Shown here: positions 6,526-58,500 of the stretch, in pieces
How positions within the stretch are numbered: the stretch's first letter is position 1
Layout: every line of letters begins with the position of its first letter
Origin: Acanthaster planci
Lineage: Eukaryota
NCBI RefSeq assembly: GCF_001949145.1
Contig: NW_019091361.1
Coordinates: 744,001 to 808,000 of the forward strand
Length of the DNA: 64,000 bases
Direction: 5' to 3'
Notes under the pieces: model-generated
The model's database searches: none
Told to the model about the DNA's origin: nothing
The model's input: only the letters and a program-made list of their open reading frames with translations
Translations under genes and position numbers: made by a program

Positions 6526-6535
6526 GGGATTTCCC
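6526..6535 (+). promoter_or_regulatory. Candidate NF-kB site upstream of viperin exon 1A
   Basis: GGGATTTCCC is an exact match to GGGRNWYYCC, about 350 bp before the ATG. Confidence 0.5.
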
Positions 6536-6879
6536 CATTGAGCAACGCAACCAAGGCTATACATACCTTGGCTGCTGTTTGAAATTGCACATGACTCTAT
6601 GACAACTGGCTGCAGCCACTACCATAGAATTTGTGCAGTTTCAAGCCTTAGCCAAGTAACTCATACACAGCCTTGGCTACCAGTTTCTAGATAGAAGACT
6701 CCTTGAGGTATTCCCAGATCAGTGCAATATCTGTGAGAGCAGTCCATACATAGGAACCAATGCTACCAACAATTGTGACACAACACAATCGTGCGTTACA
6801 CAGTGAAGAGAACGGCCTGCACTGAAAGCTTGTCAACTGAAATTGTGTTCAAAGGGTCTCATAAAAAAAGTGTATCACA

Positions 6880-7222
6880 ATGTTTGACGACTTGTGGGCT
6901 TACATGTATTTGCCCCTCATGTACAAGTACTGGTACTGCATGCCAATATTTCTTGGGCTGGTCAGTGCACTGTACATGTACATTCAAAGAAGGTGGCAAT
7001 CCCACATCAGCCAACCAACTGACAGGGCTAGAGTGGGCAATAGTGCTTCCCCTGGGAAAGCCCCAAGGAAGGACAGAGTCCAAGCACTACCCCTCAGTGT
7101 CAACTACCACTTCACCAGGCAGTGCAACTACTCCTGTGGGTTCTGCTTCCACACAGCCAAGACATCCTTTGTCTTGCCGATTGAGGATGCCAAAACAGGA
7201 ATCCGTATGCTGAAAGATGCAG
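6880..7222 (+). CDS. RSAD2: Viperin alternative first coding exon 1A (hydrophobic anchor + CxxxCxxC motif)
   Basis: ATG at 6880, open frame MFDDLWAY...[23 protein letters not shown]...LKDA-G; phase-1 donor CAG|GTTGGT at 7222/7223. Confidence 0.88.
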
Positions 7223-10200
7223 GTTGGTACAATTACAGGTAGTGTTGAATTCAATCTAAAAATGGACAAAATTATCATGTCCTGAACATGTGCTTATCTG
7301 TTGTGTTCTTATAGGCCTACATGTGCGAATACATGTACATGTATCTTTCCTCCCTTTATCAGATGTATTGTATAAAAAGTAACATGCATGCACATTCCAA
7401 TTATCTGTAACAGCAACTCACTAACACACCAACCGAGGCAGTGAAATTACTGATATTACAGTGGCACGTACACTGTACATGTGCATCATGTACATGTACA
7501 TGTACACACGAACTAGTCCAGGTATGTAAACTTGTGCAAAAAAATTCCGGATGCACTGGTAGAGTTGTTGGCAGTATTCTTGTTTGAACTTTTTGGGAAA
7601 ACAGCAAACCCAAAGGCACAAAAAGTTGCTTCACAGGTACACTTTATAAACATGGGCATGATTTTTTTCTACAAAAACTTAATGAGTTTCCAACATCAAA
7701 TCTGACACTTTAGTTCAATAAACATGTACATGTACTGTGTAATGCTATAGCAATACTGTATGATGCTGTGAAGATTTTCTAAAGTAATTCTGGATGTAAT
7801 TGTCAGTCAAGTTTTGGGATCAGGAAGTTCACAATAAAGGAATAAACAAACAGTAAAAGGCTTCACTGTTTGGTATTTGGAAAGACTAGCAACGCACTAC
7901 AATTTGTACTGGGGAAGTCCCTCATCTGAGAAATAAATGTTCTACCGTATGAGAAATCTGCATTAGTCATGCAAGTGAGACCAGGCTCTTGAACAAAACA
8001 CTGAAAGGTAAGAAGGGGAATCTAGTCATACAGAAATGTGTACATGTATGTTTAGTTTAGTAAATCTTCAGCAACTTTAATGCTATTCTTAACTGGAAAT
8101 GAGTTCTTATGCCCCCTCAACATTTTATTTAGTACTGGTACGTATTGTCATTATGAAAAATTTTTTCTTGCCAAATCTTCAAGCCATTTTTCTGTGATGT
8201 CTTAATGGTACAATCATCTGGAAAATCAGGTGTGCCATTTCTTGCAACTAGCCATTTTTCTTGAGACAGGACAGCCTGGACATGCATGAGGTTTTCAACA
8301 AAAAGCCCCATCTCAGATTGAATTGCAATGTGCATGCCAAGTTCATAAAGTGTTGGGCAATGGAAAGCCAAGATCTTAGGGGTGGGAGATCATCCCCATC
8401 CTCTGGGTTGTGCAATGGTCCAACAAGCTTATTTAGGGTTGAGCATTCAAATTGACTGAGAAGAATTTTTCAACTGCATTTATTTACTTATTTATTCACA
8501 GTGATTTACCACAGGGTGGTTGATCTTACAAGCATCATAATTTTAACAGAGTAGTATAACTATATGCAAAATTAAAAATTAAAGACTAGAAACGTATAAA
8601 AAACATTCTAAAGTACTTATAACATTTAACGAAATAAAAACTGAAACATAATGAACCTTGCAGGTTGGATAATGTGCACACTCTTGGATGAAACTGCATT
8701 GTCGCATCTAAATCAGTAAAGAACCTCAGTGTGTATTCTGAGCACAATGTCCATGTCAGAACATATACATGTACATGAAGATTACATGTGTACATATACA
8801 TGTGTAAATGCATCTGGTTTCAGTTGAAAGTATTTCTCATTCAAGGAAATAGGCCTACATCACAAATGATGGTCATCCTCATGCTGTATTGCAGCCATGC
8901 CCTCTCTCAATACTGCAACAGACCGAGGTCCCTCAAGTGTATTTGAGGAAATTACAGAGTTTACAAAATTGTGCAGCCCGCATTATCTTTAAAGTTGATT
9001 GTCACTATCATGCAATACCATTGTTAAAGTCTTTCTACTGGCTCCCAGTGAATAAAAGGATTGTTTTTAAGATTCTCTTGCTTGTCTTGAAATCCTTTAA
9101 TAACCAGACACCATTGTATGTACAGATTTCCTTATGTCGTTTACTCAACTCTGTGGTAACCTTCGCTGTGGTGCAGATTCACTTCATTTCTCATAACAAT
9201 GTACCTCAAAACTCAAACTAGAGCAGGTGATCATACCGGCCTTTACAGTTGTGGCAGCCAAAGAATGAAATAAATTACCTATTTGGATTCGGAATGCCAG
9301 ATCTATTAACCAATTTGAACAATCACTGAGATCACATCTCTTTCCTCTGTTCATGTTCGTGTAATTGTACTTTTGGCTGTTAGTTAATAGTACATACCAG
9401 TATTTACATTTACTTTGTTTTGGGAACTTGATTGTCTTATGAGGTACGGTGTAATGGGTTTTTTGTCACAATTGTAAATGTTGTGATGTAGTTTATGAAT
9501 AGCTTCTCTAAATGCATAATGATAATAATCAGTAAACAAAGAAAAATTTATGATGCTAGTGACAAAAATAAAACTTTGCTGAACTGATTCCAATACCAAA
9601 GTTATAAAACGTTGAAAACCCCTTGACAAATTACATGTACACGTACAGTGAAGTACCAGTACATGTAACTACATCTGTACATGTACATGTACATGTAATT
9701 TTAGGGAAGTGTACATGTACTTACAAGTACACATGTACCACCTCAGTCACTATATACTATACTAATAGGGAACTGTACAGGTACCATCCGAGTCAATATG
9801 TACCGGTACCATACTAATAGGGAACTGTACAGGTACCATCTCAGTCAATATATACCGGTACCATACTAATAGGGAACTGTACAGGCACCATCTCAGTAAT
9901 ATACATACCGGTACAATACTAATAGGGAACTGTACAGGTACCATCTCAGTCAATATATACCGATACCATATTAATAGGGAACTGTACAGGTACCATCTCA
10001 GTAAATATGTACCATACGAATAGGGCACTGTACAGGTACATGTACCATCTCAGTTAATATGTACCGTGCTAGTCGAGAACTGTACAGGTACCATCTCAGC
10101 TAATACATGTATATACCATATTAATAGACTTGTACCTGTACTACGGTATACTGTACTACACTACGGTATACTGTAAGTAAAGACTGTACAATCAATAAGC

Positions 10201-13200
10201 AATCCAAGCTAAAGTCTCCAGGTGTCCTTTCTCTATGGTGCAACCATAGAGTCAAGGTTTGACCAGGGCACTATGAAGGTGAAAGTTCACTCTTCCATTC
10301 TTTCAGTTCCCTGTGGATGGCATTGGGTGTGATCAGCATTATTCTGGGCAAACAGAGAGGTCAGCCTCTACCTGGTGGTAACCTGGACAAGTGAAACAGG
10401 TTAGGGCCATGCATGGCCAAATGGATTTGTATCTCAATGACTACTCATCTGTTCTCCCAAATGTGGCATTGTATATGTACATGTATATCTGTTGCAAGAT
10501 GCTTGATAAACAATACACACACAGACCCGTGAATGGTGGCAATGTCAACTGTTTTGAGGCAGAATTATTCTGATCTGCTGGCTAGGATGGAAGCTGAGAT
10601 GAATGCCTCGTCTGAAGGCATTTGGACTTGGGTCAGCTGCAACTACTGCACAAATACATGCACACGTACATGTATTACTTTTTCCCTGTTGGTGGCATGT
10701 TACTTCTTTTGCATGTGGATGCGACCTCGCATGAAGTTGCTTTTGCACAGCAACAAGCAACACATTGATATGACTAGGGTGGACAAAGATGCTACCCCTG
10801 GAGGCGCCCAAGGGGGGGATGGAGACCTAGCCCCGCACGTACCCCTCAGTGTCAACTACCACTTCACCAGGCAGTGCAACTACTCCTGTGGGTTCTGCTT
10901 CCACACAGCCAGGACATCTTTTGTTCTGCCCATAGATGAGTCCAAAAGAGGAATCCGTCTGCTGAAAGATGCAGGTTTGTACAGAGTACAACTGGTGCAG
11001 GTTACAATGTGGCAAAACTAACAGACTCCAAGCTCACACAATATTGTTCACAGAAATCTGCCTGAGAACCTTCAGCACTGTACTCAACAGAATATCTACA
11101 ATATGAAATCTTCACAGCTGTCTACTATTTTAAGGGCATTGTAAACGTTCCAGTATTTCTTATTCTTGGAGAAAAAAAAAAGTAAATCTGAAAATGATAT
11201 TCCCAGAAGAAATTACACAACTCCACACATCGAATAGAATACCAACACCGAGCAACATTACATCTGAGCAATACATACATGTACATGTACATACATACAC
11301 GTGTCCGTGTACCAGCAAGGGCAGGTACATGTACAATGTAATGTACATGTACATGTAGTGTGCATGTGCCCCAGTGATAATGTTGCACAAAGATGGACTG
11401 CCAGTAACAGACAGAACTATCTTCAGAAGTATTTATAACATTGTGAGAGTATTCACAACATGACAACATGAGTGCATGTACACATATACAATACATACAT
11501 GTACATAATGTACATATGCATACATGTGCATGTACCCGTACATTTACGATAATTTGTCATGTACAACCACATTTTTTGTGCCGTACATGATATTCTTCAT
11601 AACTTAAAGTAATAATCAAATGTTCTCCCATACTGGAATTTTTGTTCCGAACGGTGCAGTCTTTCAGTGTTGAAGGACACACATTGGCATGTACATGTAT
11701 ACAGAGCAAGTATTGAACTACCCAGAGGAGGTGGGGTACATGTACATGAAGTGAATGGCAAAATTCTTCATTTTTTTTTATCAGAGACTAAACATTCGTC
11801 CACTTTGAGGGAAGACAATGTGGTAGAAGAGAAATGTTCAGAAGACAACTGTACTAAGAAATGACCATATGTATATGTGCATGTACCTTATTGAAATAAG
11901 TCAACCAAATTCCTGACCCTTCTAAGGTGTACACATAAATCATATGGTACATGTTCATGGTGCATTGATGGAAAACATGAACTACATGTACATTTGTTAA
12001 CATCTTCAAATTCTTTTTTTTTAACAAGGACTTGTGTATTCAGTGGATTTTTCGAAATGCAGAAATGCATCATTTCAGTTGAATAATGCTGCTGGTCATT
12101 CCTTCTGCTACCGGTGACACAAGTACTTTCTTTTTATTTAAATCATTGCCTTTTTTCTTGACAAAAACACAGGTATGCAGAAGATCAATTTCTCTGGCGG
12201 CGAGCCGTTCATTGTGCAGCGAGGAAAGTTTGTGGGGGAACTTGTGCGATTCTGCAAAGTTGATCTGCAGCTTCCAAGTGTCACCATCGTCAGTAACGGC
12301 AGCCTGATAGATGAGAAATGGTTTAAAAACTACGGTATGTCAGGGTCATTCACATCTAATTAATGAGCTGGTTTTAAAACTGATGCATTGATCAACAGAA
12401 CACTGAGGAAAAAAATTACATTAAATCCTTGAAATCTAGGAAACAACTGTAAAAATGACAATCTGTTATAAACTCAACAAAAAATATTTAAATAAATGTA
12501 CATTTTGTACAAAACTTGGACATTTTATTTACTTATTTACACTCTTGCCCAATTCTTGAACTACTGGTATCATACCAGACTTGGATTTTCAAACCATATA
12601 CATGTATCAGTACATGTAAGTCACACTTTAATTTGTCGTTTTTGAGGGGTGATTTCTCGACAACCTGTGACAACGATTCTGACAGACTAAGTCTGAAAGA
12701 CATGTATTCATCATACGCATTAATACGTGAAAAATACCAGTGCAGTATTTTTAAGTGATTTACCGGTACATGTACATGTACACTGCTCAAAAAAAAGTAT
12801 GGACCACTTTTTATTTTGTGTATACTTTTTTAAATGAGACATTTTACGGCTGAAAAGGTGCATTTGATGTTTTGAAACATTAAAAAAAATTTTATTCCAA
12901 TGAGAACACCATCTAGGCAAACAAAAAATGAAAGAACTAAACCCCACTCATTACTTGGAAAAAAATTAAAAGTTAAGAAAAAAGTGGTCCTTAACTTTTT
13001 TTTTAGTCGTGTACATGTACGAGTACCAGTCAGAAATTAATCTAGCTACATGCAAAATTCTTCATTTTCCATGAGAGTATTGGGCTGAGTAAAGCAAAAC
13101 TTTACAGCTCAGAGCTACCTAGAAGGAACATGGGATTGAAGACTCCAGAATGGCTGGTCACTGGCTTAGAACTACAAAAGGCTTGGGCTGAGGGTATGAG

Positions 13201-16200
13201 GACTAAAAAAGTGTTCAGTTTTCCAGTTCGTAACATATGCACTAAGTACTTGTACATCTACATACACTGCTGTTTAATGTTTCATTCTCTCTCAGGTGAG
13301 CATCTTGACATCTTGGCTATTTCCTGTGATAGCTTTAATCCAGAGGTCAATGAAAGAATTGGACGACAACAAGGCCAGAAGAATCACCTTGACAGTTTGC
13401 AGCGCGTGCGAGATTTGTGCTCAACGTACAAAGTAAGCGCAAAGCACTATGCAACTGGGACCACAGAAACATGTACATACACAGTACACATACATCAGAA
13501 CAAAAAGTTGATGTGAAAGTACAGTACATGTATGACAATTACACCCTCCACTTGTCATGGCTTGGGTTCAAATCCTACTGAAACTAACGTGTGAATTGAA
13601 AATGTCCTGTCCCATAAATATGTATACAAACAACAATACCATAGGCTCTGATGAGGAATTTGGGTTTCTATGATAACAATCAAATGGCTGCCTGTAAGCA
13701 AAAAATGCTCCAAAGGGAGACTGCTAAAAAAAAACATTAGCGCACAATATTGAAGCATACATGTACATCCACTGAGTCACACATGAAGGGATATGCACAA
13801 GACACATTATACGTACATATACACACTTATGCATGGTAACAGATCAGTCCCCACTGATACATGTAGCCTATGTATTATGTCATGATATGGAAACACTACA
13901 ATACATGTATAAATACTGTAACTAACAAAAACATTGATGTACGCAGTCAGGAAAGTTGGATCAGGTTCAACTTTTCCATCTCACATACATGTAACTCATT
14001 TTACCACATACATGTACATGTATGCCACCCTAACTGTCTGTCTAACATAAGTATGAGTTTGGCTTCAAGAGGCAGTATTGCCACCTCAAAAAGTCATTTT
14101 ATGCAAAATGTTTCCAGTTTTGGATGCTATTTTGTTTAATTTTTTGGGGGTGTAATAACATCAGCCAGCATCTGTTTTGTCTGCGTCTTGACATTTACAT
14201 GGCACTGGCATTCGTCACAACTACATGTATGTGGAAACCAAGCTTTACACAACATACCCGAATGAATCTCTGAAGTGGATAGTGCAGAATGAGTTGCATA
14301 CTGTTTAAGTGAACAACGTAATGACACAAACGTGCACTATTCAAGGAACAATGTAGGGCATTTCGGAAACAGTTACCGGTATCTCCCTATGTCTTCAACA
14401 ATTGTTCAACAAAGAAAGCACTGATTTGCAAAATATAGGGACAAGTTATTGTCTTTCTTGCTCTGAAGATCATCAGCAATCATTTCTTTGTCTGCAACTG
14501 TGCTTTTCCCTACAGGTTGCATTCAAGATCAACAGTGTCATAAATACACACAACAAAGATGAAGATATGGTAGACTATATCACTAATCTTAACCCAGTCA
14601 GATGGAAGGTAATGTACCCCCTCTACAAGTACAATGAACCCAGTCACATTTTCCCCTGAAGTAAGAATTGTCAGTCAGTAAAAATTATGATGGGAAAAAG
14701 TGAAAAATCATAAAGCCCTCTCTGGCAAGTTGGTGTACATGATGATGTTACCAGGTACATGTACATGTAAGGTGTGTTATGGTATATGCACCTTGCATCT
14801 CACAAGTGAGTTGGCTTAAGTGGCTGCCATGATGAGACAGACACTTACGTCTGATATGATGAGAAAGGCAAGACTCTTCCTCCTTGCAGGAAAGCAATGA
14901 CTGCTCTTTGTGTAGAATTGCATATCCTCAACTACCTGTACATGTACATGGCTTGAGCCATGAAAACTGATTATCTCATACTGCATCCTGTTGGAATAAG
15001 CCATTTGCCAGTTAAATTTGAATAAAATCTGGTGCACTGAGTTATCTGTCGGCACATAAACAAAATGATTTGAATTCACCTGACTAAAGACACTGTTGCT
15101 ATACCTCGTGATTCGGGGCAAGCTTTTGCATAGCGACCACCATCTCTGGAATGGACTAGTTCCTTTGTGCCCTTCTTATCCATTGAGAACAGTGTATCGT
15201 TACAAGGCGTCACTTATGTAACTAAGCAAAAGCTTGCCCCAAATCATGAGGTATAGCAACAGTGGTTTTAGTAAGGAGAATTCAAGTTGTTATGTTCACG
15301 TGAATTTAAAGAACTCAGTGTACCAGATTTGGGTCAAAATTAACTCACAAAAGGCTTATTGAAATGACTCCTCTGGCAGCAGCTGCCCTCTGTGGACCCG
15401 TTCAAAGCTCAGTATACCGATGGCTGAGCCACAAACTTGGGGGGGGGGTTGACTCTGGTCACAAGGAGAGCAACAGTCACAAGGCTGGCGGCCTAGTGCA
15501 GCTGTTCCCTTCAACTTTGTCAGCTTTCCTTCAACAAGTTAATGTCATAACTGTGGACTTTCTCTCTTCTTGTCTCCATGCTGTTTGATGTCACAGTTCC
15601 TTTTGAAGGGCAATTGTTGAGAACATCCCTTTGTTGGTCCTCAGACCTGTTTATCTTGCTTGGTTCTAATAAAAGATATTTTATCACCTATCCATTTTTT
15701 TGGAACCAGCCTCGTTCAACCTGAGCTTTTTGCTGCCACTGCTATCCTCTTCATCCAATGATGTTTATAAAAGCCTTTTATGTTTTTGTCATTCATGCAT
15801 TTCCTACATGTACTTAGGTTTTCCAGTGTCTTTTGATCGGAGGAGAGAACTGTGGCGAAGATGCCCTTCGTCATGCTGAGTCCTATGTCATAAGTGAAGA
15901 AGACTTCCAGGCATTTCTAGACAGACACAAGGATGTCAAATGTTTGGTGCCAGAATCAAATGACAAGGTAGAGATTCATGTACAACATAGCCAAAAAACA
16001 AAAGAAAAATACCAAGTAATGAATAATGACAAGAAACTAGTTGGTTGAATTTAAAAAGTCTGGAGTACTTCTGGAAGAGGTGATTGAACCCATGCAAGAC
16101 TATGACTGTAATGGTTTGTGAACTAAAACGTACAGAATCACCTTTGTAAAGGTTCTGTCATTATCTGATGGATCAAATTCATTTTCTTTACTCTCCTTTC

Positions 16201-16984
16201 TTTGCAACACAGATGCAGAACTCTTACCTCATTCTCGATGAATACGTAAGTAGTCGCACATGTACCGTGAGACTGTATGGAACTTATTGGTACATGTACA
16301 TGTAGGTGCAAGGACACTCTTGAAACTGCCTGCACTTACATGTACATTATACATGTACACGTACATGTATCTCCACATTTTCAACAGCACATGTACAGGT
16401 ATCAGGTGCATTAGAGGTTTACATACAGTACATAATTGCTGATTCATAACAGGAGTAGAAGGTGGCGTATAACATTAAAGCCCTGTACTCAATGAAAAGA
16501 CCATCAATTAATATGGAAACAGCAGCTGTCTGAAACATTGACAACACTCACTACCGGTTCTTTTAAGAACTACCAGTAAATTTGTTCAAAGAAGAGACAG
16601 GTTCCAGGACTGTGCGGAAAGCTATCATCTGTACCATACCGGTACCTTAAAAGGATCTTCTAAAGTGGCTTCAATGAAAAGAAATAAATTACAAATTAGT
16701 TTGATCTTAAAACTGAAGTCACTATAAAGGTGTTCGCCGGTTTGGCCCAGTTTTTTCTTTTTTCACTGTCAAACTGTTTTATTTGTTCAAATTTGAATGA
16801 ATTCTGAATTTCACCACAGATGCGGTTTTTGGATTGCACTAAAGGAAGCAAAGACCCTTCCAAGTCCATTCTGGACGTTGGTGTGACTGAGGCACTCAAG
16901 TTCAGTGGTTTTGATGAGCAGATGTTCTTGAAGAGAGGAGGCAAGTACAAATGGAGTAAAGCAGACATGAAGCTGGACTGGTAA
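6880..16984 (+). CDS. RSAD2: Viperin / radical SAM domain-containing protein 2 (ddhCTP synthase), whole spliced gene. Isoform A = join(6880..7222,12173..12334,13296..13432,14516..14608,15818..15967,16213..16245,16820..16984), 360 aa. Isoform B uses 10533..10974 as first exon, 393 aa
   Basis: Manual splicing gives an uninterrupted frame; all introns are GT-AG with matching phases. Viperin signatures: [38 protein letters not shown] [47 protein letters not shown] and C-terminal [16 protein letters not shown]. Confidence 0.97.
7911..7921 (-). promoter_or_regulatory. Candidate NF-kB site between viperin exons 1A and 1B
   Basis: GGGGAAGTCCC; the reverse complement GGGACTTCCCC matches the kB consensus. 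Confidence 0.4.
8943..9343 (+). mobile_element. 3' fragment of an L2/CR1-group LINE ORF2 (decayed)
   Basis: [14 protein letters not shown]...[26 protein letters not shown]; after frameshifts [34 protein letters not shown], the typical C-terminal tail of L2-type RT proteins. Confidence 0.85.
9745..10130. repeat. Minisatellite, ~52-bp unit, ~7 copies, decaying at the 3' end
   Basis: Unit ACTAATAGGGAACTGTACAGGTACCATCTCAGTCAATATATACCGGTACCAT; units start at 9761, 9813, 9865, 9918, 9970 and about 10016. Confidence 0.93.
10275..10398. promoter_or_regulatory. Cluster of IRF/ISRE-like motifs upstream of viperin exon 1B
   Basis: GAAGGTGAAAGT (10275), CTTTCAGTTCC = GGAACTGAAAG on the minus strand (10300), AAGTGAAACA (10389). 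Imperfect matches to GAAANNGAAA / AANNGAAA. Confidence 0.35.
10533..10974 (+). CDS. RSAD2: Viperin alternative first coding exon 1B (longer Cys-rich anchor + CxxxCxxC motif)
   Basis: Open frame MVAMSTVL...[23 protein letters not shown]...LKDA-G; phase-1 donor CAG|GTTTGT at 10974/10975. The real start could be one of several downstream in-frame ATGs. Confidence 0.9.
12173..12334 (+). CDS. RSAD2: Viperin shared exon 2
   Basis: ACAG|GT ATG CAG acceptor; (G)[28 protein letters not shown]...[13 protein letters not shown](G); donor G|GTATGT. Confidence 0.96.
12781..13011. mobile_element. Tc1/mariner-type MITE in viperin intron 2
   Basis: TA|CACTGCTCAAAAAAAAGTATGGACCACTTTT ... AAAAGTGGTCCTTAACTTTTTTTTTAGTCGTG|TA: imperfect TIRs with TA target duplication. 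Confidence 0.75.
13296..13432 (+). CDS. RSAD2: Viperin shared exon 3
   Basis: TCTCTCTCAG| acceptor; (G)[45 protein letters not shown]; donor |GTAAGC. Confidence 0.96.
14516..14608 (+). CDS. RSAD2: Viperin shared exon 4
   Basis: TTTTCCCTACAG| acceptor; [31 protein letters not shown]; donor AAG|GTAATG. Confidence 0.96.
14995..15360. mobile_element. Foldback/MITE with ~140-bp inverted arms in viperin intron 4
   Basis: For example CACTGTTGCTATACCTCGTGATTCGGGGCAAGCTTTTGC pairs with GCAAAAGCTTGCCCCAAATCATGAGGTATAGCAACAGTG, and AAATCTGGTGCACTGAGTT with AACTCAGTGTACCAGATTT. Confidence 0.8.
15818..15967 (+). CDS. RSAD2: Viperin shared exon 5
   Basis: CTTAG| acceptor; [50 protein letters not shown]; donor AAG|GTAGAG. 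Confidence 0.96.
16213..16245 (+). CDS. RSAD2: Viperin shared exon 6 (33-nt mini-exon)
   Basis: ACACAG| acceptor; [11 protein letters not shown]; donor |GTAAGT. Confidence 0.95.
16820..16984 (+). CDS. RSAD2: Viperin terminal exon 7
   Basis: CCACAG| acceptor; [57 protein letters not shown] stop at 16982-16984. Confidence 0.97.
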
Positions 16985-17819
16985 TCTGATGACTTACATG
17001 TACATGTACAAAACACTTCTCTATGTACATGTACCAGTACATGCCCCAGTCTTCAGTGTGAAACCTGAACTCCTCACAGTACAGTAAAGCACTAATGTCC
17101 TCCGACTGAATTTGCTTCCAAAGCCTGTTGGGCTGCCTACACTGTATATCTTTTACTCAGATATTAACTCCCGTGGTAACACATCAAGTTTAGAATAACT
17201 CAAAACAACAGAACTTAATCATGGGGCAGCCATTTCGTTTTTCTACCATTGGAAGAAGTGTTACCGAACTGAGGATGGAAGAAAATGGTCTGTTTGCATT
17301 TATCAACACGTAAAGTTGTATTACTTTGGCATTTAGTATACAGGAGCTAGACAAAAATGGTGGCATCATGATAAAGGTTTACAGAGATTTATAAATGCTT
17401 GCAACTGACACCAATGTTCTACACAGTACCAGTACATGTTTGTATTAACATGTATAAACACAAAGTATCAACATTTATATATTTTAGCAGAAAGTTGTTA
17501 ATTACAATTTGTTCTTGTCTAAGCTTGTACCGGTACCTTGTGATCGTGTTTCTACATGTGTATGTATCACCTACATGTACGGATTTGTTTACCATAAGGT
17601 TAAGTGTGGTTACCCGTGGTTACCTAGATCGAGCTTCCCAGTTACTTACATGTACTCCTCAATACGCTTATGTAACTTGTTCACAAAGTGACCTTGTCAA
17701 TTTGCATTAATTGTAAGCTCTTTTGGATCCAGACCAGCATTTTTATTCAAAAAGTAACACCACCTCAAAATTATTTTCTTTTAGACCAGTTTGCTGATAA
17801 CTTTAAGGCAGTGAGTAGC

Positions 17820-18160
17820 AAAAACACATTTTCTTGCTTTCACCAAAACGCTCGGAGCCTACGTAAGAATTTTGATAATATGATTGACTATATAAACATT
17901 CTTCAATACCAATTTCATGTCACTGGTTTCAGCAAAACATGGCTAGACGACAAGAGCCCAGATTTCTGCATTAAAAATTACTCATGTGTGAAGAAAAATA
18001 GGTAGATAAAACTGGTGGTGGTGTTGCCTTATATGTGCATAATTCTCTTAACTTTTTTGTACGCAATGATCTCAAACTAAGTAACTATGCCTGTGATTCT
18101 CTTTTCATTGAAATTCCCCATTCTCAGGGTAAAAGTATTACAGTTGGCATAATCTACACA
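17820..18160 (+). mobile_element. Decayed APE-type endonuclease fragment of a CR1/L2-group LINE
   Basis: FHQNARSLRKNFD...VTGFSKTWL...KNR*DKTGGGVALYVHNSL...DSLFIEI...ITVGIIY with an internal stop; matches the NxRSL, (E)TWL and GGGVALY motifs. Confidence 0.85.
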
Positions 18161-21100
18161 CTGAAATAATGTAATGTACATAGTGGTATGGTACAACAGT
18201 CATCCCCAATGGCTTAGTCAGTGTTCAAGTACATGCTTAATGTTCACTCAACCACTGTGCCTGTACATGTACCACATTTACATTTAGCAGTGGCACACAT
18301 AGTGTACATGTACATGCACAGTGGCTTATACAGTGTACATGTACATGTGTACATGTACCAGGTAATGTACCATGAGTGATAGCCCCTTAGTGACCCTTCA
18401 TTGTGACAATATACCGGTAGTGGTGCATGTAAAATGCAATGACTTTCATGTACTACGCCTACCAGTACATCTACTTTGAAAGTAATTTCCTGAGAAAAAT
18501 GTCCAGCCCTCTAAATTTACTTCTTCAGGTGAAAACAAGAAAACTATCATCTTTCCATTTTCAAACCATGATTGGAAATCATTGTATACATTTTTATGTG
18601 CAGTGAAAAAAAGACTACTGATATGAATATATTCTCGTTCACTCAAATTGGTAACTTAAGGCTCATTTCACCTTGAAGTCACACCTTGTTTCTACCGAGA
18701 GGAAGGGATATCACATGTATGCTTGAAATAGTGTACCTCCATGGTACCTCTGATCAAGTAAAAAGGTTTTTTTCAGCCATTTTGAAAGAAATCAGCACTC
18801 CTAAACAAGTGCAAACAGTCTTTATTAAACCTTTTCCGATGCAAGTCATTAATACTTTTTAACATATCTTGTCCTTCCACAGTAGTGTGCACGTTACCAT
18901 TGTACATGCACAATATCCGGCAAATCACCGAAAGATTGCCAAATCGCTACCTGTACCTCTTACCCACTTGTAGCCCACACACTGACAGTCCAATCTCTGG
19001 CACATTGTGGTGGTCAGTGTGACTGCATTGGAAAACTAACTTTTGCAATTTTAGATGGGGGCAGACATCTTTAAGTAAACCCAATGTAACAAACTATGGA
19101 AATGATAACACACCCTAAGAATCAATAAAAGAGGAAAAATCGTGTCTAAATCAATAGTCCAACTGGACAGAGTGAGTTACGGTGGAAAGACTCTGATAAA
19201 AAGAATAAACATTATAGAAAAAAATCACAGAACCTTTGCATTTAAACTCAAAATCGAGAAGCTTCATCAGTTCCCCCAAGCTCCATTGACATGTACATAC
19301 CGGTATGATGGAAGTTTACTGTAGTACTGTAATTGGCCTTTGATGGTTTGTGTAAACACTTCACCAAAGTTTCCCATTGATATTTTCACATGTTGAAACA
19401 GAAATTATGAAATAAGCATTTCAAAACTGAAAGCATCATACATGTTACCAAAAAAATTACATAAAAAGAGCACATGTACACGATACAGTACATGTACGGT
19501 ATATACCCCCCCCATATGCAGAGTTTCAAAAACTGAGCCCACATTACATGTAGGTGGTTATTCGTTTTATACACCAGATCAGCCAGTACAACCATTTCCA
19601 CTTTATTCAAATGAATATGAAAATCAAATATTACAGTACAGCAGACGTTAATGAATGATAAGCTACTGAAGAGGAATTGTTGCCAGGAATAGATAGTCTT
19701 AACAACTTTAACACTTTCGCTTGCAATGTACTGTGCGTAAAATACTGACCTCAACTGAACATGTACACTACCAGAGCAACACTTACCACTTCTTACAGTG
19801 GGATGCTCCCAAGATGAACAAATCCTAGTCACTTGAAGATTTTGTCTGCAGAGACTGCCCACTCAAGGATCCATTCAGAAGTACACGTATGCGGGTTCTA
19901 CCTACGGTACATGTACCCTGTCTCCACTTCTGGGTGAAGAATTAACATACAGCAGTATGTACATGTACATGTGCAGTGTACCCAGTCCCTGTAATTTGAT
20001 AACAGAGACAAGTCCCTGTCAGGAAACAGGATTGATAGTAAGATTTTTCATTTCAGTAATCACATTTCTTTAATTTGCATAATTTAACTGAGCATGTGTG
20101 ACTTCAGTCCAGACAATTGCATGTGCTAGTAAATGGCTGGAAAAAGTCTCTACATTTGTAGGTTTGTCCAATCAGAATTACATCCAATAAAGTTGTTGCT
20201 TTTTTAATTCTTTCAGCATGACAACTGAAACATGTACCAGTAGCTTCATTACTACCCAAGCTGAAAACAGGTTGAGTACATACAGCAGAAGATTGTTGCA
20301 ATGTGCTTCCGAAAGCTTTTTCGAAATGTAAATTTATTCAAAACCGTGTGTACAAAAAAAACAGAGTAGGGCTAGTACGCATACAATGATACATGTTATG
20401 TAGATCCCTCTGAATCTCATCTGTCAACTGAGGGCGCTCTTACAATTTGACAATGTAAAGAACAACTTACAGTACATGTATTTCCAACTTCACATTGGAA
20501 CATGCACTAGGCATGATCAATCGACCTGTGGTTTGAAGCTCTTACATAATTTTAAAGACGTAATGAGTTACATCCAATTTCAATTTACCGGCATTTGTAC
20601 GGAAGAGAGCAACTTTCCAACCATAAACTGCATATTGTTGGTCCCTCACTAAACTACCATACACCACCCTACACTTCCTTTTGTGTATTAGATTTTACTT
20701 TTGTTTAAATATTGTTTTGGTTATATGTACTTCATGTACCGGTATATATTCTTTCAATAGCATCTTTTAATATAAATTTATTTCTTTGTGTTAATGCATA
20801 CTGTCATAATTCAGAACGTACATGTACATGTATGTAAAAAGTACCTTGCATTTGTACCAATTTCCCGTACACTCACAATACCACTCAGATACTCCAAGCC
20901 GGAACATGCCAGGTATTCATGATTTCAAATATTCAGTCCACTCATTCATTATTCTCACAAATGGCCACTTCCCATTCCAAGCCCTGATCACATTTAATGA
21001 CCTCTATTTACCATTAGCCCAACTCCCCTGATGGCCATGCTGTAGCACTGAGCATGAGAAGTGGAATGATTATTGGGTTATTAGTCGAGGGCAACGAAGC

Positions 21101-24100
21101 CTTTCTGAGCTAAACCACCAGGCCCGCAGTCAGAAGAACAGGTTTTTTTACCACTTTGTCTTTTATTTTTCACATCGTCACAACCATATCATCCTAATTC
21201 ACATCAGTGGCTTGAGTACAGCCATCTGGATCACATTCAGATATTTGATAAATTGGCATAGACACAGAATGCATCTCATACATGATGATGTGGAACAAAT
21301 TAATCTTTGGTCTTGTTCTTTTTGGTACATGTATGTCTTTTTAAGGAAACCTACATGTATCAAATTAAAAATGCACCAATGTAAAATCACCCTTGAAAGC
21401 TATCATGCTTGTATCATTTCAATCTGCAATGAATTTTTAATGTGAAATATTTTGTTCGCAGATAGGGTATGGTTGTATGCTTGTAAACTAACATTTTTCT
21501 AACAATGGCACCATTTCATGTATTGAAGAGGAATTTGAACCAGCATGTAATAAAAAAATATTTCACAATGAGTGAGGATTGCACAAGGACATGTACCGGG
21601 TATGTGTACACAATTTTCTTTCTTGTATGAGTCCTCAATGTACATGAGCCCTCATTTCAAACTTTATAGCTGTATAAAACTTCATTGACCTTTATCTGCG
21701 GGTACAAGTACATGTAGTATCAATGACAACATTGTGTGAAATTAATGTAACAAGTCTCATCACAATAGGTATTGTACTTGTACATGTATCTGTATAAATG
21801 AATAACAGACTTGTAACTAGACTTCATTGGGTGTCCATCATGTACAGTGTACATTGTATTGTATGGTTGCCATACTAGCTGCACCTTAGTGCTCCAATGT
21901 CAAGAAAATACCGGTACCTGATTTGCTAAAAAAAAAACAAAAAAAACTACATACACATGTACCAAAGTCTTTGGCCTTCATTTAGTTAACAAATGTCTGA
22001 AAATGGAAGGTTTGGGAGTCTTCCAATTTTTCCTCAATTTTCGTAAGTGTACAAAACATATGCTGGGGCCGAGGTTGACTGCCAGTGCACATGTACACTT
22101 TTCATTGTGTAACTTTAAATTGCGTAACAATTGACCACTGTCATGTTTTATGTACTCTTAATGGGGTGTCAGATGAAAAGAGTAACTTTTTTGGTGCTAG
22201 AGAAAATGACTGGGGACAACGGATGACCTTATTAATGGTCAATATGGAGCTGGTATGACAACATACATGTACCAGTATGGTACCAGTAAATCAAACATTT
22301 GGAAGCAGCCCGTTAAAAACTACCCCTGCATTTCACTACAACACACATTGTGAATGTCAGACCACAAATTAAACATACTCCTGAAAGTTTCTCTATCCAA
22401 TGCAAATGATACTGCTGTGTAATTGTTGACTCAGGGCCCAGTTACCCTGTGCCTGCCTACACTCCTCAATTCTACCCTTGAACAAGCTGCTCAATCAAAT
22501 GAAACCTCTTCTTTGGCAATACATGTACATGTACGTCCCCTACTCCCTTCGATTCTCAAATCAGAAACTCAAACAGACTCAAGACAAACGCTGTTAAAAC
22601 TGCTCCTGTTATTCATCTGAAATCAGCACTGTGAATTCCATAGTCTACTGATCATGGTGAGGAGTTGAATTTTGTCTAATCCAGATGTATACAGTGGGTG
22701 TACATGTACAAATACGCGCCAAAACCAGCAGAATGCCCAGTCTTGCTACAGGTAAAACACACCTGTGCCAACACACAAGACATACTCATTACAGAACTTC
22801 AGCTACATGTACCAGTACACTGTACATGAAAATAAGGCAACCATTCAATATCCATATTCTTAATACAACACACCGTACATGTACATGTAAATATTCAGGA
22901 GAAATTGCTACTACGTAGCTTACATTTACATGTATTTTAGTGAAAACAGTTCCAACCTCAGACTCTTAACTGCTACTGTATGGGGGGGACACAAAGCCCT
23001 ACGATACCATTGTGTGATGTGCCTGTCCTAACCTACAAAATCCTCCAAACCTCCCACTAGGATTTTGAATGATCTTGAGAGGCTCGTACCAACTGTAACC
23101 TTGAATTGCAAGTAGGCCTACTCCATGTAATGTTCATGTACACGAACCAGTAATGATGCCACATTGCATATTTGTGGTGTAGCATGAAAACCAAGAGAGA
23201 AAAGTAGACAGGTTTGATGACAATTGTAAAGGGGAAGAGATGCGATTCACTGCCCTGGGCCTTCCCTAAAAAACTTCAGGAAAGAATTTGCAACCTCTTT
23301 CAGGCAGGCAATGACAAACGCTTGCGGGTGTTTACGCATGTAGGCCATAACACTGCAATTAGGTAGGTGCCATCAATTTAAAGACTCAAGAATAAATCTG
23401 GTGCAAGTGACTTCTTGTCTGCAATCAATCAAGTACCAAACAAGAAAACCTTCCTGCTCCTTGCCAAGAAATGAACTCAATAAATCCACACCGGAGACAT
23501 TTTTGGGTTGCCGGGCCCAAGGAAGATATGCGCAAGGTAAATTACAAATTGGGAGTTTTGAGGTTATCCAAATACAGTCACTGAAAGAGAAAAGACACAC
23601 CTGAAATAAATATAACATTTGAGCAGATGTGTTGGAGAAGGGAAGAAAATAGTTTTAAACTTGATTTTGTACAATAAAATATGAACGTGAACATGTACAT
23701 GTATACTAGTTTGAACTGCACAGCATGTAAGTAAAAAGAGCTTTTGGTTAAAAAAACAAAGAGAGAGAGAAAATTCTTCCAACTCAAATCAACTTGTAGT
23801 CCACTAATTTCCTCCCAAAACAAACATCTGTCTACATCTTTGCTGCATTGAGTAAACATGGACTGCCAGTTATGTCATGTTGACACTAATATTTCAAGAC
23901 ATTGGCAGACAGACTTACACATTCCCCCTGAAACCCCAACATGGCAAAATAAACCATTCAGAAACCAGGTCAGGCAGAAGACAATTCCAGCTGACAAGAT
24001 CCCCAGTGTTACTCATACCGCGCCCGGCGCAAACTGGCCAGGCACGCTATCTCAAACAATTTGTCCAGTGCCGCACTAAAATATTCAATTTTCTATTCAC

Positions 24101-55500: not shown

Positions 55501-58500
55501 TGCCGTTTACATGGGTTTTTCACACAAGTGAATGTGTGCCTAGACAAGATTTCAAAGCAAAATGTTCCTATTTGAATATATTATTCTGATACTACTTTCT
55601 CACATGTAGCTTAAAGCTCTTGGTAAATGCAGAACATTTCAAAGTTGGTCAGATATTAGCTTCTAATGTTCATGGCACCTCCCCCCCCCCAAAAAAACCC
55701 ACTTTTACTGTATATCTTTTCTTTTCTTTTTTCCTGTTGCATATAAGTTGGAGAATACACTTTTAGTGTCTCGGATACCATGATTGCCAACAATAATACC
55801 AAGCGTAAGAAGCAGTTGGTTACACTATTCATTACAGAAAGTCAGAGAGCTTTACAGGTCTACTTGTACATTTACATACTGAACCTGAAGCATAAGCACT
55901 TTGTATTCTCATTAGTGTCCCTGTGAAGATGATCTCCAAACTGGTTTGTGGTATTTCTTTTCTGTGATTTTTTCACTAATTTTTTATTTTCAGTGGAACC
56001 AGGTTCTACAGAAAATCAAAAAGGCTTTTGTTGACAATGACCACAATTCAATTGGTAAAATAATATGTGTAGTGCCTAGTTGACTAGATCAGTGCTGGTT
56101 TTTACATAGGATATTCTGTTGTTCCTATGTACATGTAGTCAATTAGTCAAACTTTCCATCCCTCCAGAATCATTGTACCAAAGTTGTTGACAAGTACGTT
56201 GAGTTTGATCCAGTCATTGTTCTTCTTGATGCGCTGCTGTACAAGCCACAGGCCTACAGACACATCTTGTTTAACACCAAGAGTAATGTGAGTTGTTACG
56301 ACCTTCATTAATCGATTTGTTCACCACACTCTCTTTTGACCTTTTAACCCTAATTCCCTTGACTGACTGCCCTTCCACTGCATAGAAAGCAAGGAACGCA
56401 TTCCTTGTTTTACAGCGTTCAAGGGATATCACACCCCATGTGAGTAATTCATGTATATCACAACTCTTCTTAATGCTAATGAAACACTCTGTGTACCGGT
56501 ACTTCTGGAATATAAGTTACTTTTTTAAAAGGCAGCTGCAATCAATTTGTTTTAATACAGACCTTCAAAGTGCACCTTTGTGCTCAGTTAACCTTATTTT
56601 CAACTTATTTTTTTTCACTGTTTCTAAGGGTATTTTACTGCTTTTTATGCTAATGAGATTTCCAATATTCATGAGAAAACTGTGATGTCATCTCAGGAAG
56701 AAGCCTCAATGTTACATTGGTTTGTACACAAAAAATCCTGTATTTTTGATTTGATTTTACTGGACTCAGTTTTCTCTTCTTTGCTGATTCATTATTTATG
56801 TGCCTTCCTCAGAAATGTTTTCAGTAAGTAAATTCTGGGTTCATAATTTGAACAGAAAAGCCCATGCACTGAAATATGTCTTCTTCAAATGACTTCAATT
56901 TAATTCTAAAACTTTAATTGTTTTTAATTGTTTGCATATGCATTTTTCTATGCATTTAACCAAATAGGAAAGTAAAAGAGTCTTCATACATTGGAGAAAA
57001 AAATTCATTGCAGATACACTTTAAAGGTTGAGCACTGTCCCGCTTGTTTCCATTTGATCTACAGATACATTGGAAGTTGAGCATTCTTTGTCTTTTGTGT
57101 GACGCTTACACCAAATGGGCGCAGCGTTCAACGGTTAACCCAGCCACTGACCCCCTCGATCGACAGTTCCTCTTCTTTGCCCTGCAATGGCACTTCTATG
57201 TCATGTTCATCATTGCAGGACTCGGTGGGTCCCTCGGTCAATGATATTATTCACAATGACATCATACACATACATGGACATTTCCAGCAAACTCTTTGAG
57301 TGCAGTCTAATGCGATGTGAGGTTCTGTCCAAATCAAATATTGTTGTTTTCACTTATGTTCATAGGTGTCATGGGGGAGAAGTACAGTTGAGGGGCAGTT
57401 GGTCTCTCAAAAAGAAAGAAAGAAAAATAAACAGGGGATAAAGACAAAAATGAAAGAAACAAAAAAAAACAAAAGGGAGGTAGGGGATAACAGTCGCTAT
57501 GTCGGTTTATCAAAACACACTATTGATAAAAGCTGCAGCCCTACATACCGTAGTTTCACCGTGACCTGATGTGGTGTGGTTTGTTTTGCTTCTACTGAAG
57601 TTGATGTTTAACACTGTCTATGACCTAGATCCTTCATGACTTAAAACCCCTCACCCCCATCAGAAAGGGGAAATAAAGTGGAGGAAAGAAAAGCGAGACT
57701 GACTAGAGCAGATTTGAGTCTGTGAGGGGCCATCAATACACTGACTGATAGCTCAGTTGAGAGAACACTGGAAGGGTATTCCAGAGGTGACAGGTTCAAA
57801 TCCCACTCCAGTTAATTTCTTTGTTAATCTTTATCATTACTGTGTATGCATCTTGTCAGTTTTCCTACATGGTTTGTTTAATAGAACCTTCAATTTGTTT
57901 GAATTTTAAGTAAAGGCTATCGAAAATCTGGTACGATAAGTACAATACAATAAACAGTCACATACATGTATTTCAACTGTACTAGTTCCACCAAGTCTAT
58001 TCATGTCCAACCATCATCCCCTAATGACTCAATTTCTCTGTTTCTGATTCATGGAGCCACATTTCCTTATTGATTGAATATACCCCAGTCTTGTACCACA
58101 TATGCATTTTCTTTGTATCACCAAGCCATTACAAAAAGTCGAATACAAATTCTATATTATTTATCAGTATTGTAGTCTAGTCCATCACGAGTCTCTGCAA
58201 GTAAATCTTAAACCGTCCAGTCTCAAGTCAAGTCATAAGCAATGATGGGAAAAACTTCCAGAACTAAAACAACCATGGCATTGTTCACTCATAACTGGTC
58301 TTGTGAAAGGACTTGTGATGCACTCCACTGTTATTTATATCCAGTCACAACATACAAAGTGTGTTTGATTTGTGCACTTACCCTGATTCCTGGAACTCCT
58401 TTACCTTTTTTTTTCTGCATCAGAGCTGAGTTCCTTTCTCCTTGGTGTTGTGGTGCCAATAATTCTTCAGTCAAGAATGACGGGAGCTCAAGACAACAGG

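What the first reader, a model, noticed from the sequence alone, without database searches (positions are those of the whole stretch)
6880..16984. One viperin gene with two interchangeable first exons: a variable N-terminal/Fe-S module spliced to a constant catalytic body
Seen: exon 1 exists twice (6880-7222 and 10533-10974). Both copies are open from an ATG, both encode a hydrophobic anchor plus the full [19 protein letters not shown] radical-SAM motif, and both end in the same phase-1 donor (GATGCAG|GT). Exons 2-7 occur only once, and no copies of them lie between 1A and 1B. Known: the viperin N-terminus sets membrane localisation (ER/lipid droplet), and the body makes ddhNTPs. Inference: alternative promoters give two enzymes (360 and 393 aa) with different targeting from one locus, a miniature UGT1A/protocadherin-style variable-first-exon design. 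I do not know of this arrangement being described for viperin.
Basis: partly seen in the sequence, partly recalled or inferred. Interest (0 to 1): 0.9.

Follow-up and report, generated by a model that had tools for sequence, protein, structure and literature searches.

The report
Starfish viperin with two first exons
This starfish antiviral enzyme gene (viperin) carries two intact copies of its first exon in front of one shared catalytic body, a layout that a second starfish family likely shares, so it would make one enzyme with two different membrane anchors, although only the upstream form has been seen spliced in this species.

Summary
Observation confirmed. Exon 1A (6880-7222) and 1B (10533-10974) are open, both hold the whole CxxxCxxC motif, and both end in a phase-1 donor; exons 2-7 occur once. 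1A plus body equals the Acanthaster planci RefSeq viperin. RNA shows the 7222>12173 junction; 1B had no depth in the one informative sample, and that blank has caveats. New evidence: Patiria miniata RefSeq isoforms X1 and X2 share an identical 246-residue body but have paralogous first-exon parts. Their anchors pair 1A-X1 and 1B-X2 across families (bootstrap 95; species grouping rejected, AU p 0.026). A third intact B-type exon exists (P0321). The duplication is therefore old. Corrections: the Fe-S motif is not variable (72 identical nt, likely gene conversion); the substrate pocket is in shared exon 7, so both forms would make ddhCTP; 1B likely starts at 10599 (371 aa, not 393); different targeting is untested. 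This is a known kind of architecture (tandem alternative first exons) that my searches did not find described for viperin. Interest 0.5.

The parts
6526..6535 (+). NF-kB-like site GGGATTTCCC, about 125 nt upstream of the 5' end of the 1A RNA contig; candidate part of promoter A (inferred)
   Evidence: 8 strand-matches in the window (two of the places match on both strands) against a chance mean of 2.17; the pattern is a recalled consensus; function untested
6659..6879 (+). 5' untranslated part of exon 1A (at least this long); holds a short upstream ORF from ATG 6760
   Evidence: X1 contig 6659-7064, depth 23.2; ATG 6760; in-frame stop before 6880
6880..7222 (+). Exon 1A coding part: A-type hydrophobic anchor, linker, strand 1, CxxxCxxC motif, helix 1; phase-1 donor CAG|GTTGGT
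   Evidence: 100% identical to XP_022108160.1; junction to 12173 in 1 read of X10 and an X1 contig
7088..7159 (+). 72-nt tract identical to 10840-10911, covering the CxxxCxxC codons; likely gene-conversion tract
   Evidence: 0 of 23 third positions differ here against 6 of 21 downstream, Fisher p 0.008
9755..10099 (.). 52-nt tandem array between the two first exons, ending about 430 nt upstream of the first 1B ATG
   Evidence: 5.6 copies, 89% matches at 9755-10039
10275..10310 (.). Two ISRE-like stretches (1 and 2 mismatches) upstream of 1B; weak candidate for promoter B
   Evidence: 215 matches at this tolerance window-wide, so not significant on its own
10533..10974 (+). Exon 1B: B-type anchor (Thr-rich spacer, FSLL..C(Y/W)F), linker, CxxxCxxC motif, helix 1; phase-1 donor CAG|GTTTGT; likely start ATG 10599
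   Evidence: orthologous to the heads of Patiria X2 (P0001) and P0321; splicing not observed
12173..12334 (+). Exon 2 (54 codons), first shared exon
   Evidence: X1 contig 5; the same 54 residues are missing from 3 of 3 mammalian short isoforms examined
13296..13432 (+). Exon 3
14516..14608 (+). Exon 4
15818..15967 (+). Exon 5
   Evidence: X1 contig 5
16213..16245 (+). Exon 6 (11 codons)
16820..16984 (+). Exon 7 coding part with stop; holds C312 and K317, the CTP-selecting residues (mouse C314, K319)
16985..21577 (+). Long 3' untranslated region; seen in RNA to 19000, extrapolated to about 21577, with AATAAA at 21549
   Evidence: X1 contig 5 is 5365 nt and was laid only to 19000; extrapolation; AATAAA list

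Best explanation
One viperin gene has two intact, homologous first exons ahead of a single six-exon body; 1A is spliced to the body, and 1B likely is too, from a promoter of its own, as a minor or conditional form. The doubling likely predates the split of Acanthasteridae and Asterinidae. Since then the two anchors have diverged and stayed distinct, while the Fe-S-motif end of the exons was likely homogenised by gene conversion within each species. Both isoforms (360 aa and likely 371 aa) would bind the [4Fe-4S] cluster with the same cysteines and make ddhCTP with the same pocket. They would differ in when or where they are transcribed and in their membrane anchor. Shown: gene anatomy, the 1A junction, Patiria proteins with two heads on one body, and the A-A/B-B pairing. 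Inferred: Patiria's genomic layout, promoter B, 1B splicing here, gene conversion, the product, and any difference in localisation.
For: Anatomy and phases. 1A junction: 1 read in X10 and a spliced X1 contig of depth 43.8. Patiria XP_038072336.1 (X1) and XP_038072337.1 (X2), listed with the same longest-contig length, differ at 0 of 246 body residues, but their heads differ up to residue 31 of the 42-residue motif block. Anchor scores: 1A-X1 60 and 1B-X2 58 (each 0/2000 shuffles), against 1A-X2 27 (375/2000), 1B-X1 29 (15/2000) and 1A-1B 25 (370/2000). On the anchor tree the A/B split has bootstrap 95 and species grouping is rejected by AU p 0.026. Block residue 31 is D in both A heads and E in both B heads (D in 26 of 292 other viperins). 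A third intact B-type exon, P0321, scores 98 to 1B (0/2000) and has the same 9-residue start. The 1B donor has the same +5G/+6T as the used 1A donor. In human genes such N-terminal tandem-exon swaps come from alternative promoters (PMC8373072, passages).
Against: No 10974>12173 joint among the 15 joints shown (103 more hidden). Depth in bin 10501-11000 was 0 in X1, X10 and X13 and at intron level in X14 (0.69/0.09). The X1 body contig runs into 1A-specific bases without a break. The A. planci cluster has 1 member, the 360-aa form, and no 1B-bearing protein of 259 aa or more turned up. 1B carries two rare residues (block K22R, 3 of 292; A32S, 0 of 292), has lost the fourth-position Met seen in Patiria X2, and has 6 Cys in its tail. 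The AU rejection rests on 48 columns (KH p 0.054, SH p 0.067), and only 2 anchor columns strictly show the orthologue pattern. X1 also scores well against X2 (43) and P0321 (52). Patiria DNA was not seen.
Confidence: 0.6

Rival explanations
1. The two-first-exon design is real and old, but in Acanthaster 1B has recently gone silent and is starting to decay; only 1A is used here, while Patiria keeps both.
For: No 1B depth in X1 while 1A was at 23 and contigs of depth 2-3 were kept. Only the 360-aa form is annotated. Rare substitutions K22R and A32S in the motif block. 1B has a longer branch than the other two B heads on the anchor tree (0.54 against 0.36 and 0.04).
Against: The frame, motif and donor are intact, and the indels against both other B heads keep the frame. 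1A (R34T, 3 of 292) and both Patiria heads (F25D, 0 of 292) also carry rare residues. The RNA blank rests on one informative sample; X10 and X13 barely cover even exon 2 (0.14, 0.04). By my arithmetic on the bin means, X1 also has a hole at about 7065-7191 in the used exon 1A, so motif-bearing contigs may have been left out.
Confidence: 0.3
2. Assembly artefact: a tandem pair of whole viperin genes, each with its own exons 2-7, was collapsed, as a misreading of the two-gene state seen in Asterias.
For: Asterias rubens and A. amurensis each have two whole-gene paralogues, whose bodies differ at 4 and 7 of 246 residues. No second assembly of this locus was examined.
Against: RNA joins 1A directly to exon 2 at 12173, across 1B. 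There is no gap or N in 6880-16984. The Patiria assembly is a separate one and shows the same pattern with 0 body differences.
Confidence: 0.05
3. 1B is not a first exon but an internal cassette reached from 1A through a cryptic acceptor, giving non-productive RNA that tunes viperin level.
For: Acceptor-like AGs at 10306 and 10585 lie ahead of the 1B coding part; joining 1A to either gives a stop at codon 123 or 120.
Against: It would not explain a conserved start, anchor and open frame in three B-type exons. No such joint among the 15 shown.
Confidence: 0.05

Closest known systems
Animal viperin / RSAD2 (mouse, PDB 5VSL and 6Q2P)
   Same: Residues 68-360 align without gaps (E 6e-152). Motif, CTP-pocket residues and the exon 1/2 and 2/3 boundaries are shared.
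   Different: Two homologous first exons. Among 248 full-length viperins held, only the Patiria pair showed paralogous heads on an identical body; 0 of 42 metagenome loci had two motif exons, though most are too short to tell.
Tandem exon duplication-derived N-terminal substitutions (39 in the human set, PMC8373072, passages)
   Same: Duplicated 5' coding exons giving homologous N-termini on one body, conserved between species.
   Different: Here the duplicated exon holds the three Fe-S cysteines of a radical SAM enzyme; RSAD2 does not occur in that paper's main text (0 hits); use of the second exon is not shown in this species.
Clustered protocadherins, Chelicerata sDscam (PMC4835542, passages) and UGT1A (recalled)
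   Same: Variable first exons or cassettes spliced to constant exons; homogenisation of the 3' part of variable exons (recalled for protocadherins).
   Different: Two units, not an array. The specificity-setting pocket is in the constant part, so no change of substrate is predicted. Separate promoters are not shown.
Known viperin diversification: fathead minnow Viperin_sv1 (exon 5 skipped) and gibel carp homeologues (PMC13030082, PMC11218377, passages); Asterias two-gene state
   Same: More than one viperin form per species.
   Different: Those arise by internal exon skipping or whole-gene copies, not by swapping the first exon on one body.

Membership tests
viperin (ddhNTP synthase) | N-(W/Y/F)-H-x4-Cx3Cx2CF motif (as given in PMC11218377 passage) | tested here: met
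   Present in both 1A and 1B; motif text
viperin (ddhNTP synthase) | Full-length homology to solved viperin barrel and C-terminal extension | tested here: met
   phmmer of P0003: 5vsl_A, E 6.2e-152, residues 68-360
viperin, CTP-selective type | Residues equal to mouse Cys314 and Lys319 in the beta-8 loop | tested here: met
   C312 and K317 in shared exon 7; criterion from bioRxiv 10.1101/2023.09.13.557418
viperin (ddhNTP synthase) | Makes ddhNTP; antiviral activity | not testable with these tools
   Needs an enzyme assay
viperin, eukaryotic | N-terminal membrane anchor | tested here: inconclusive
   Best 19-residue Kyte-Doolittle means 1.40 (1A), 1.56 (1B), 1.91 (Patiria X1), 0.70 (Patiria X2); localisation untested
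viperin, metazoan | Linked CMPK2-type kinase gene (70% of fungal and metazoan cases) | tested here: inconclusive
   No kinase Pfam hit in 187 of 885 frames picked by GC, 4 added frames, and 81 further upstream frames; the same scan missed 1A and 1B themselves, so it is insensitive to short exons
tandem duplicated alternative first exons | Homologous 5' coding exons in tandem, same phase, one downstream body | tested here: met
tandem duplicated alternative first exons | Each exon spliced to the common exon | tested here: inconclusive
   1A yes; 1B not seen in 4 runs, only 1 of them informative; Patiria RefSeq lists both forms, whose read support I could not see
tandem duplicated alternative first exons | A promoter and start site for each exon | not testable with these tools
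   Only consensus scans; no read-start pile-ups (table 6: none)
tandem duplicated alternative first exons | Both exons conserved between species | tested here: met
   At protein level: A-A and B-B pairing with Patiria, and a third B exon; genomic DNA of Patiria not seen
UGT1A / protocadherin-type cluster | Array of many variable exons | tested here: not met
   Two copies only in 64 kb
UGT1A / protocadherin-type cluster | Variable exon sets substrate or binding specificity (recalled for UGT1A) | tested here: not met
   By sequence: motif identical over 72 nt and nucleobase pocket in the constant exon; enzyme output itself not measured

The most novel reading that the evidence does not exclude
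Valvatid starfish keep, across at least two families, a promoter-switched viperin: one catalytic body with two anchors held distinct by selection while gene conversion keeps the Fe-S motif the same. The two forms are induced in different cells or by different signals and sent to different membranes; the B anchor may be lipid-modified at its conserved Cys. It would be a natural experiment on what the variable N-tail of eukaryotic viperins does with the enzyme held constant.
Probability: 0.25. Interest if true: 0.7.

Novelty: new variant of a known kind. Interest (0 to 1): 0.5.

Why it matters
The N-tail is the most variable part of eukaryotic viperins. The viperin survey I read in part says that the localisation and role of most N-tails is unknown (bioRxiv 10.1101/2023.09.13.557418). 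Two old, distinct tails on an identical body let that be tested with the catalytic part held constant. The finding also flags a probably unannotated isoform of a core antiviral gene in crown-of-thorns starfish, and shows a route to viperin diversity (first-exon doubling) beside whole-gene copies and exon skipping. The architecture itself is familiar, so the surprise is moderate.

Tried and rejected
No whole genome is held for this window, so further viperin copies outside the 64 kb could not be sought. The run search listed no RNA holder on record; this is no evidence either way. Only one laying of reads was answered, so runs X2-X9 were never examined and the state of 1B in other individuals is open. 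A metagenome scan with 1B gave 42 loci, none close to 1B and none with two motif exons; 8 exceed 10 kb, and few have much sequence upstream. The exact 162-aa 1B read-through frame is not in the protein collection. A search for the same pattern in other taxa: 248 of 320 held proteins were usable; six pairs were flagged, five were indel or start variants of one head, and only Patiria fitted. Molluscan and sponge clusters showed gene copies and truncations; isoform X1 of the A. amurensis gene was not found. P0322 and P0323 were rejected as low-complexity matches. ISRE scans: none of 10 exact GAAANNGAAA matches lies in 4-19 kb. No TATA match upstream of 1A, and one at 10110. The CMPK2 screen was inconclusive. 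Earlier findings: none. My first exon model had two boundaries off by one base and was corrected. Literature: viperin + 'alternative first exon' 0 papers; Acanthaster + RSAD2 0; viperin + Patiria miniata 0; viperin + starfish 5; viperin + echinoderm 15, 13 listed; splice variant set 4; alternative promoter set 1; coral/duplication set 126, 20 listed. By titles and abstract starts none describes this layout. The library lacks most subscription papers, and the bioRxiv supplements (N-tail tables) could not be seen. No structure prediction was run: the fold is known and would not settle splicing.
Full report
What is in the sequence. The gene model holds. Exon 1A (6880-7222) and exon 1B (10533-10974) are open from an ATG, contain the full viperin motif and end at CAG|GT in phase 1. 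Six further exons (12173-12334, 13296-13432, 14516-14608, 15818-15967, 16213-16245, 16820-16984) complete frames of 360 and 393 codons without internal stops. tblastn over the whole window finds exons 2-7 once each and nothing between 1A and 1B. The two first exons are 81% identical over 226 nt at their 3' ends and do not align as DNA further 5'.

What the gene is. Exon 1A is 100% identical to the start of XP_022108160.1, the 360-aa RSAD2-like protein of Acanthaster planci, and the body matches at all 246 positions. Residues 68-360 align without gaps to mouse viperin (E 6e-152). C312 and K317 match mouse C314 and K319, which mark a CTP-selective pocket in the viperin survey (bioRxiv 10.1101/2023.09.13.557418; parts 1-3 of 6 read, and a term search). 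They lie in exon 7. The exon 1/2 boundary is ancestral: 3 of 3 mammalian short isoforms examined lack exactly the 54 residues of exon 2, and several metagenome loci break at the same residue. So 1A and 1B are two copies of the ordinary first exon.

RNA. Four runs were laid. The joint 7222>12173 appears in one read of X10 and in an X1 contig (depth 43.8) that continues through the body into a long 3' UTR; another X1 contig covers 6659-7064. The bin over 1B had depth 0 in X1, X10 and X13 and intron-level depth in X14, which covers all 30 bins. No 1B joint is among the 15 shown; 103 are hidden. X10 and X13 hardly express the gene in the fifth of each run that was read, so only X1 is informative. 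Even there the bin means imply a hole over the motif of the used exon 1A (my arithmetic), and the tool warns that records can be left out. The X1 body contig runs on into 1A-specific bases, which fits little or no 1B use in that sample. The A. planci cluster has one member and no 1B-bearing full-length protein was found. So 1A is the main form; 1B is neither shown nor excluded.

Conservation. This is the main new evidence. Patiria miniata, a different family of the same order, has RefSeq isoforms X1 (361 aa) and X2 (352 aa). Their bodies differ at 0 of 246 residues, but their heads differ throughout, including residues just before and inside the motif block. That is what two paralogous first exons would give; I could not see the DNA, so the layout is inferred. 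The anchor parts pair across species: 1A-X1 score 60 and 1B-X2 score 58 (0 of 2000 shuffles each), against 27, 29 and 25 for the crossed and within-Acanthaster pairs (similar). A search of 1.84 billion representatives with the 1B tail gave 3 hits. One, P0321, is an intact B-type exon from an unnamed 689-nt contig that reads on into an intron. On the 48 anchor columns the A/B split has bootstrap 95 and grouping by species is rejected (AU p 0.026, but KH 0.054 and SH 0.067). On the other 85 columns grouping by species is best. Block residue 31 is D in both A heads and E in both B heads of the two named species. Weak points: the alignment is short, and X1 also resembles X2 and P0321 (scores 43, 52). 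Asterias, another order, instead has two whole genes with unrelated heads.

How the exons evolve. 1A and 1B share 72 identical nt over the cysteine motif: 0 of 23 third positions differ, against 6 of 21 just downstream (Fisher p 0.008). With anchors that old, this points to gene conversion, as does the species-wise grouping of the 3' part (inference). Patiria X2 and P0321 both have nine residues from the start Met to the first Trp; the Met at 10599 gives the same spacing, so 371 aa is likelier than 393. All three B heads keep a Thr-rich spacer, FSL and a Cys before an aromatic residue; neither A anchor has a Cys there. 1B has two residues rare among 292 other viperins (K22R, A32S), but 1A and both Patiria heads have rare residues too.

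Mechanism. Most likely (0.6): alternative promoters, with the cap-proximal first exon spliced to exon 2 and 1B skipped inside the intron of 1A transcripts. The products would share chemistry (ddhCTP) and differ in regulation and anchor. Promoter evidence is thin: an NF-kB-like site at 6526-6535 and weak ISRE-like stretches at 10275-10310, both from recalled consensus patterns. Different targeting is plausible, because the N-terminal helix sets ER and lipid-droplet location in mammals (PMC11218377, passages), but untested. Both Acanthaster anchors are similarly hydrophobic (1.40, 1.56), while the Patiria pair differ (1.91, 0.70). Main rival (0.3): 1B has lately gone silent in Acanthaster. Collapse of two genes (0.05) and a poison-exon role (0.05) fit poorly. 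Whether the layout began as an exon duplication or as a gene duplication that lost one body cannot be told.

Comparison and novelty. Duplicated first coding exons under alternative promoters are a known class: 39 N-terminal cases in one human catalogue (PMC8373072, passages), with protocadherins and sDscam as large versions (PMC4835542, passages). Known viperin variants are exon-5 skipping and whole-gene copies (PMC13030082, passages). Eight paper searches on viperin variants or starfish listed nothing on this layout, within a library that lacks most subscription journals; RefSeq does already list both Patiria forms. Among 248 usable viperins held, only the Patiria pair fits. Verdict: real, conserved, a new variant of a known kind; interest 0.5.

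Noticed in passing
window 16985-21577: The viperin mRNA seems to have a 3' UTR of about 4.6 kb: an RNA contig is colinear to 19000 and its remaining length ends 23 nt past an AATAAA at 21549.
   Followed up: partly
window 6760-6825: A short upstream ORF (about 21 codons) lies in the 5' UTR of the 1A transcript and could damp translation.
   Followed up: no
window 6895-6995 and 10650-10680: The genome's common TACATG/GTACA words are dense in the 1A anchor (91 per kb against 21 window-wide; 33 in 1B) and coincide with in-frame insertions relative to Patiria; repeat slippage may be lengthening the anchors.
   Followed up: partly
window 57032-57241 and 59581-59811 (+): Exons of an ARV1-like gene (PF04161, E 8e-4 and 3e-5), the only clear other gene found in the screened frames.
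   Followed up: no
window 15000-15350 and 12760-13010: Repeats with inverted arms inside viperin introns that attract hundreds of RNA reads from elsewhere in the genome; likely non-autonomous DNA transposons.
   Followed up: no
window 8853-9221 and 17676-18005: Frames that read like decayed LINE reverse-transcriptase and endonuclease pieces (recalled resemblance; no Pfam hit).
   Followed up: partly
P0068, P0199, P0197, P0198: Asterias has two whole viperin genes per species with related heads and bodies differing at 4-7 residues; one A. amurensis record is 'isoform X2' and its X1 was not found.
   Followed up: partly
P0001, P0196: Both Patiria heads have Asp at block position 25, where 284 of 292 other viperins have Phe and none has Asp.
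   Followed up: no
P0166, P0292, P0296: Geodia barretti records suggest viperin joined to, or mis-merged with, an ARL6-like GTPase.
   Followed up: no
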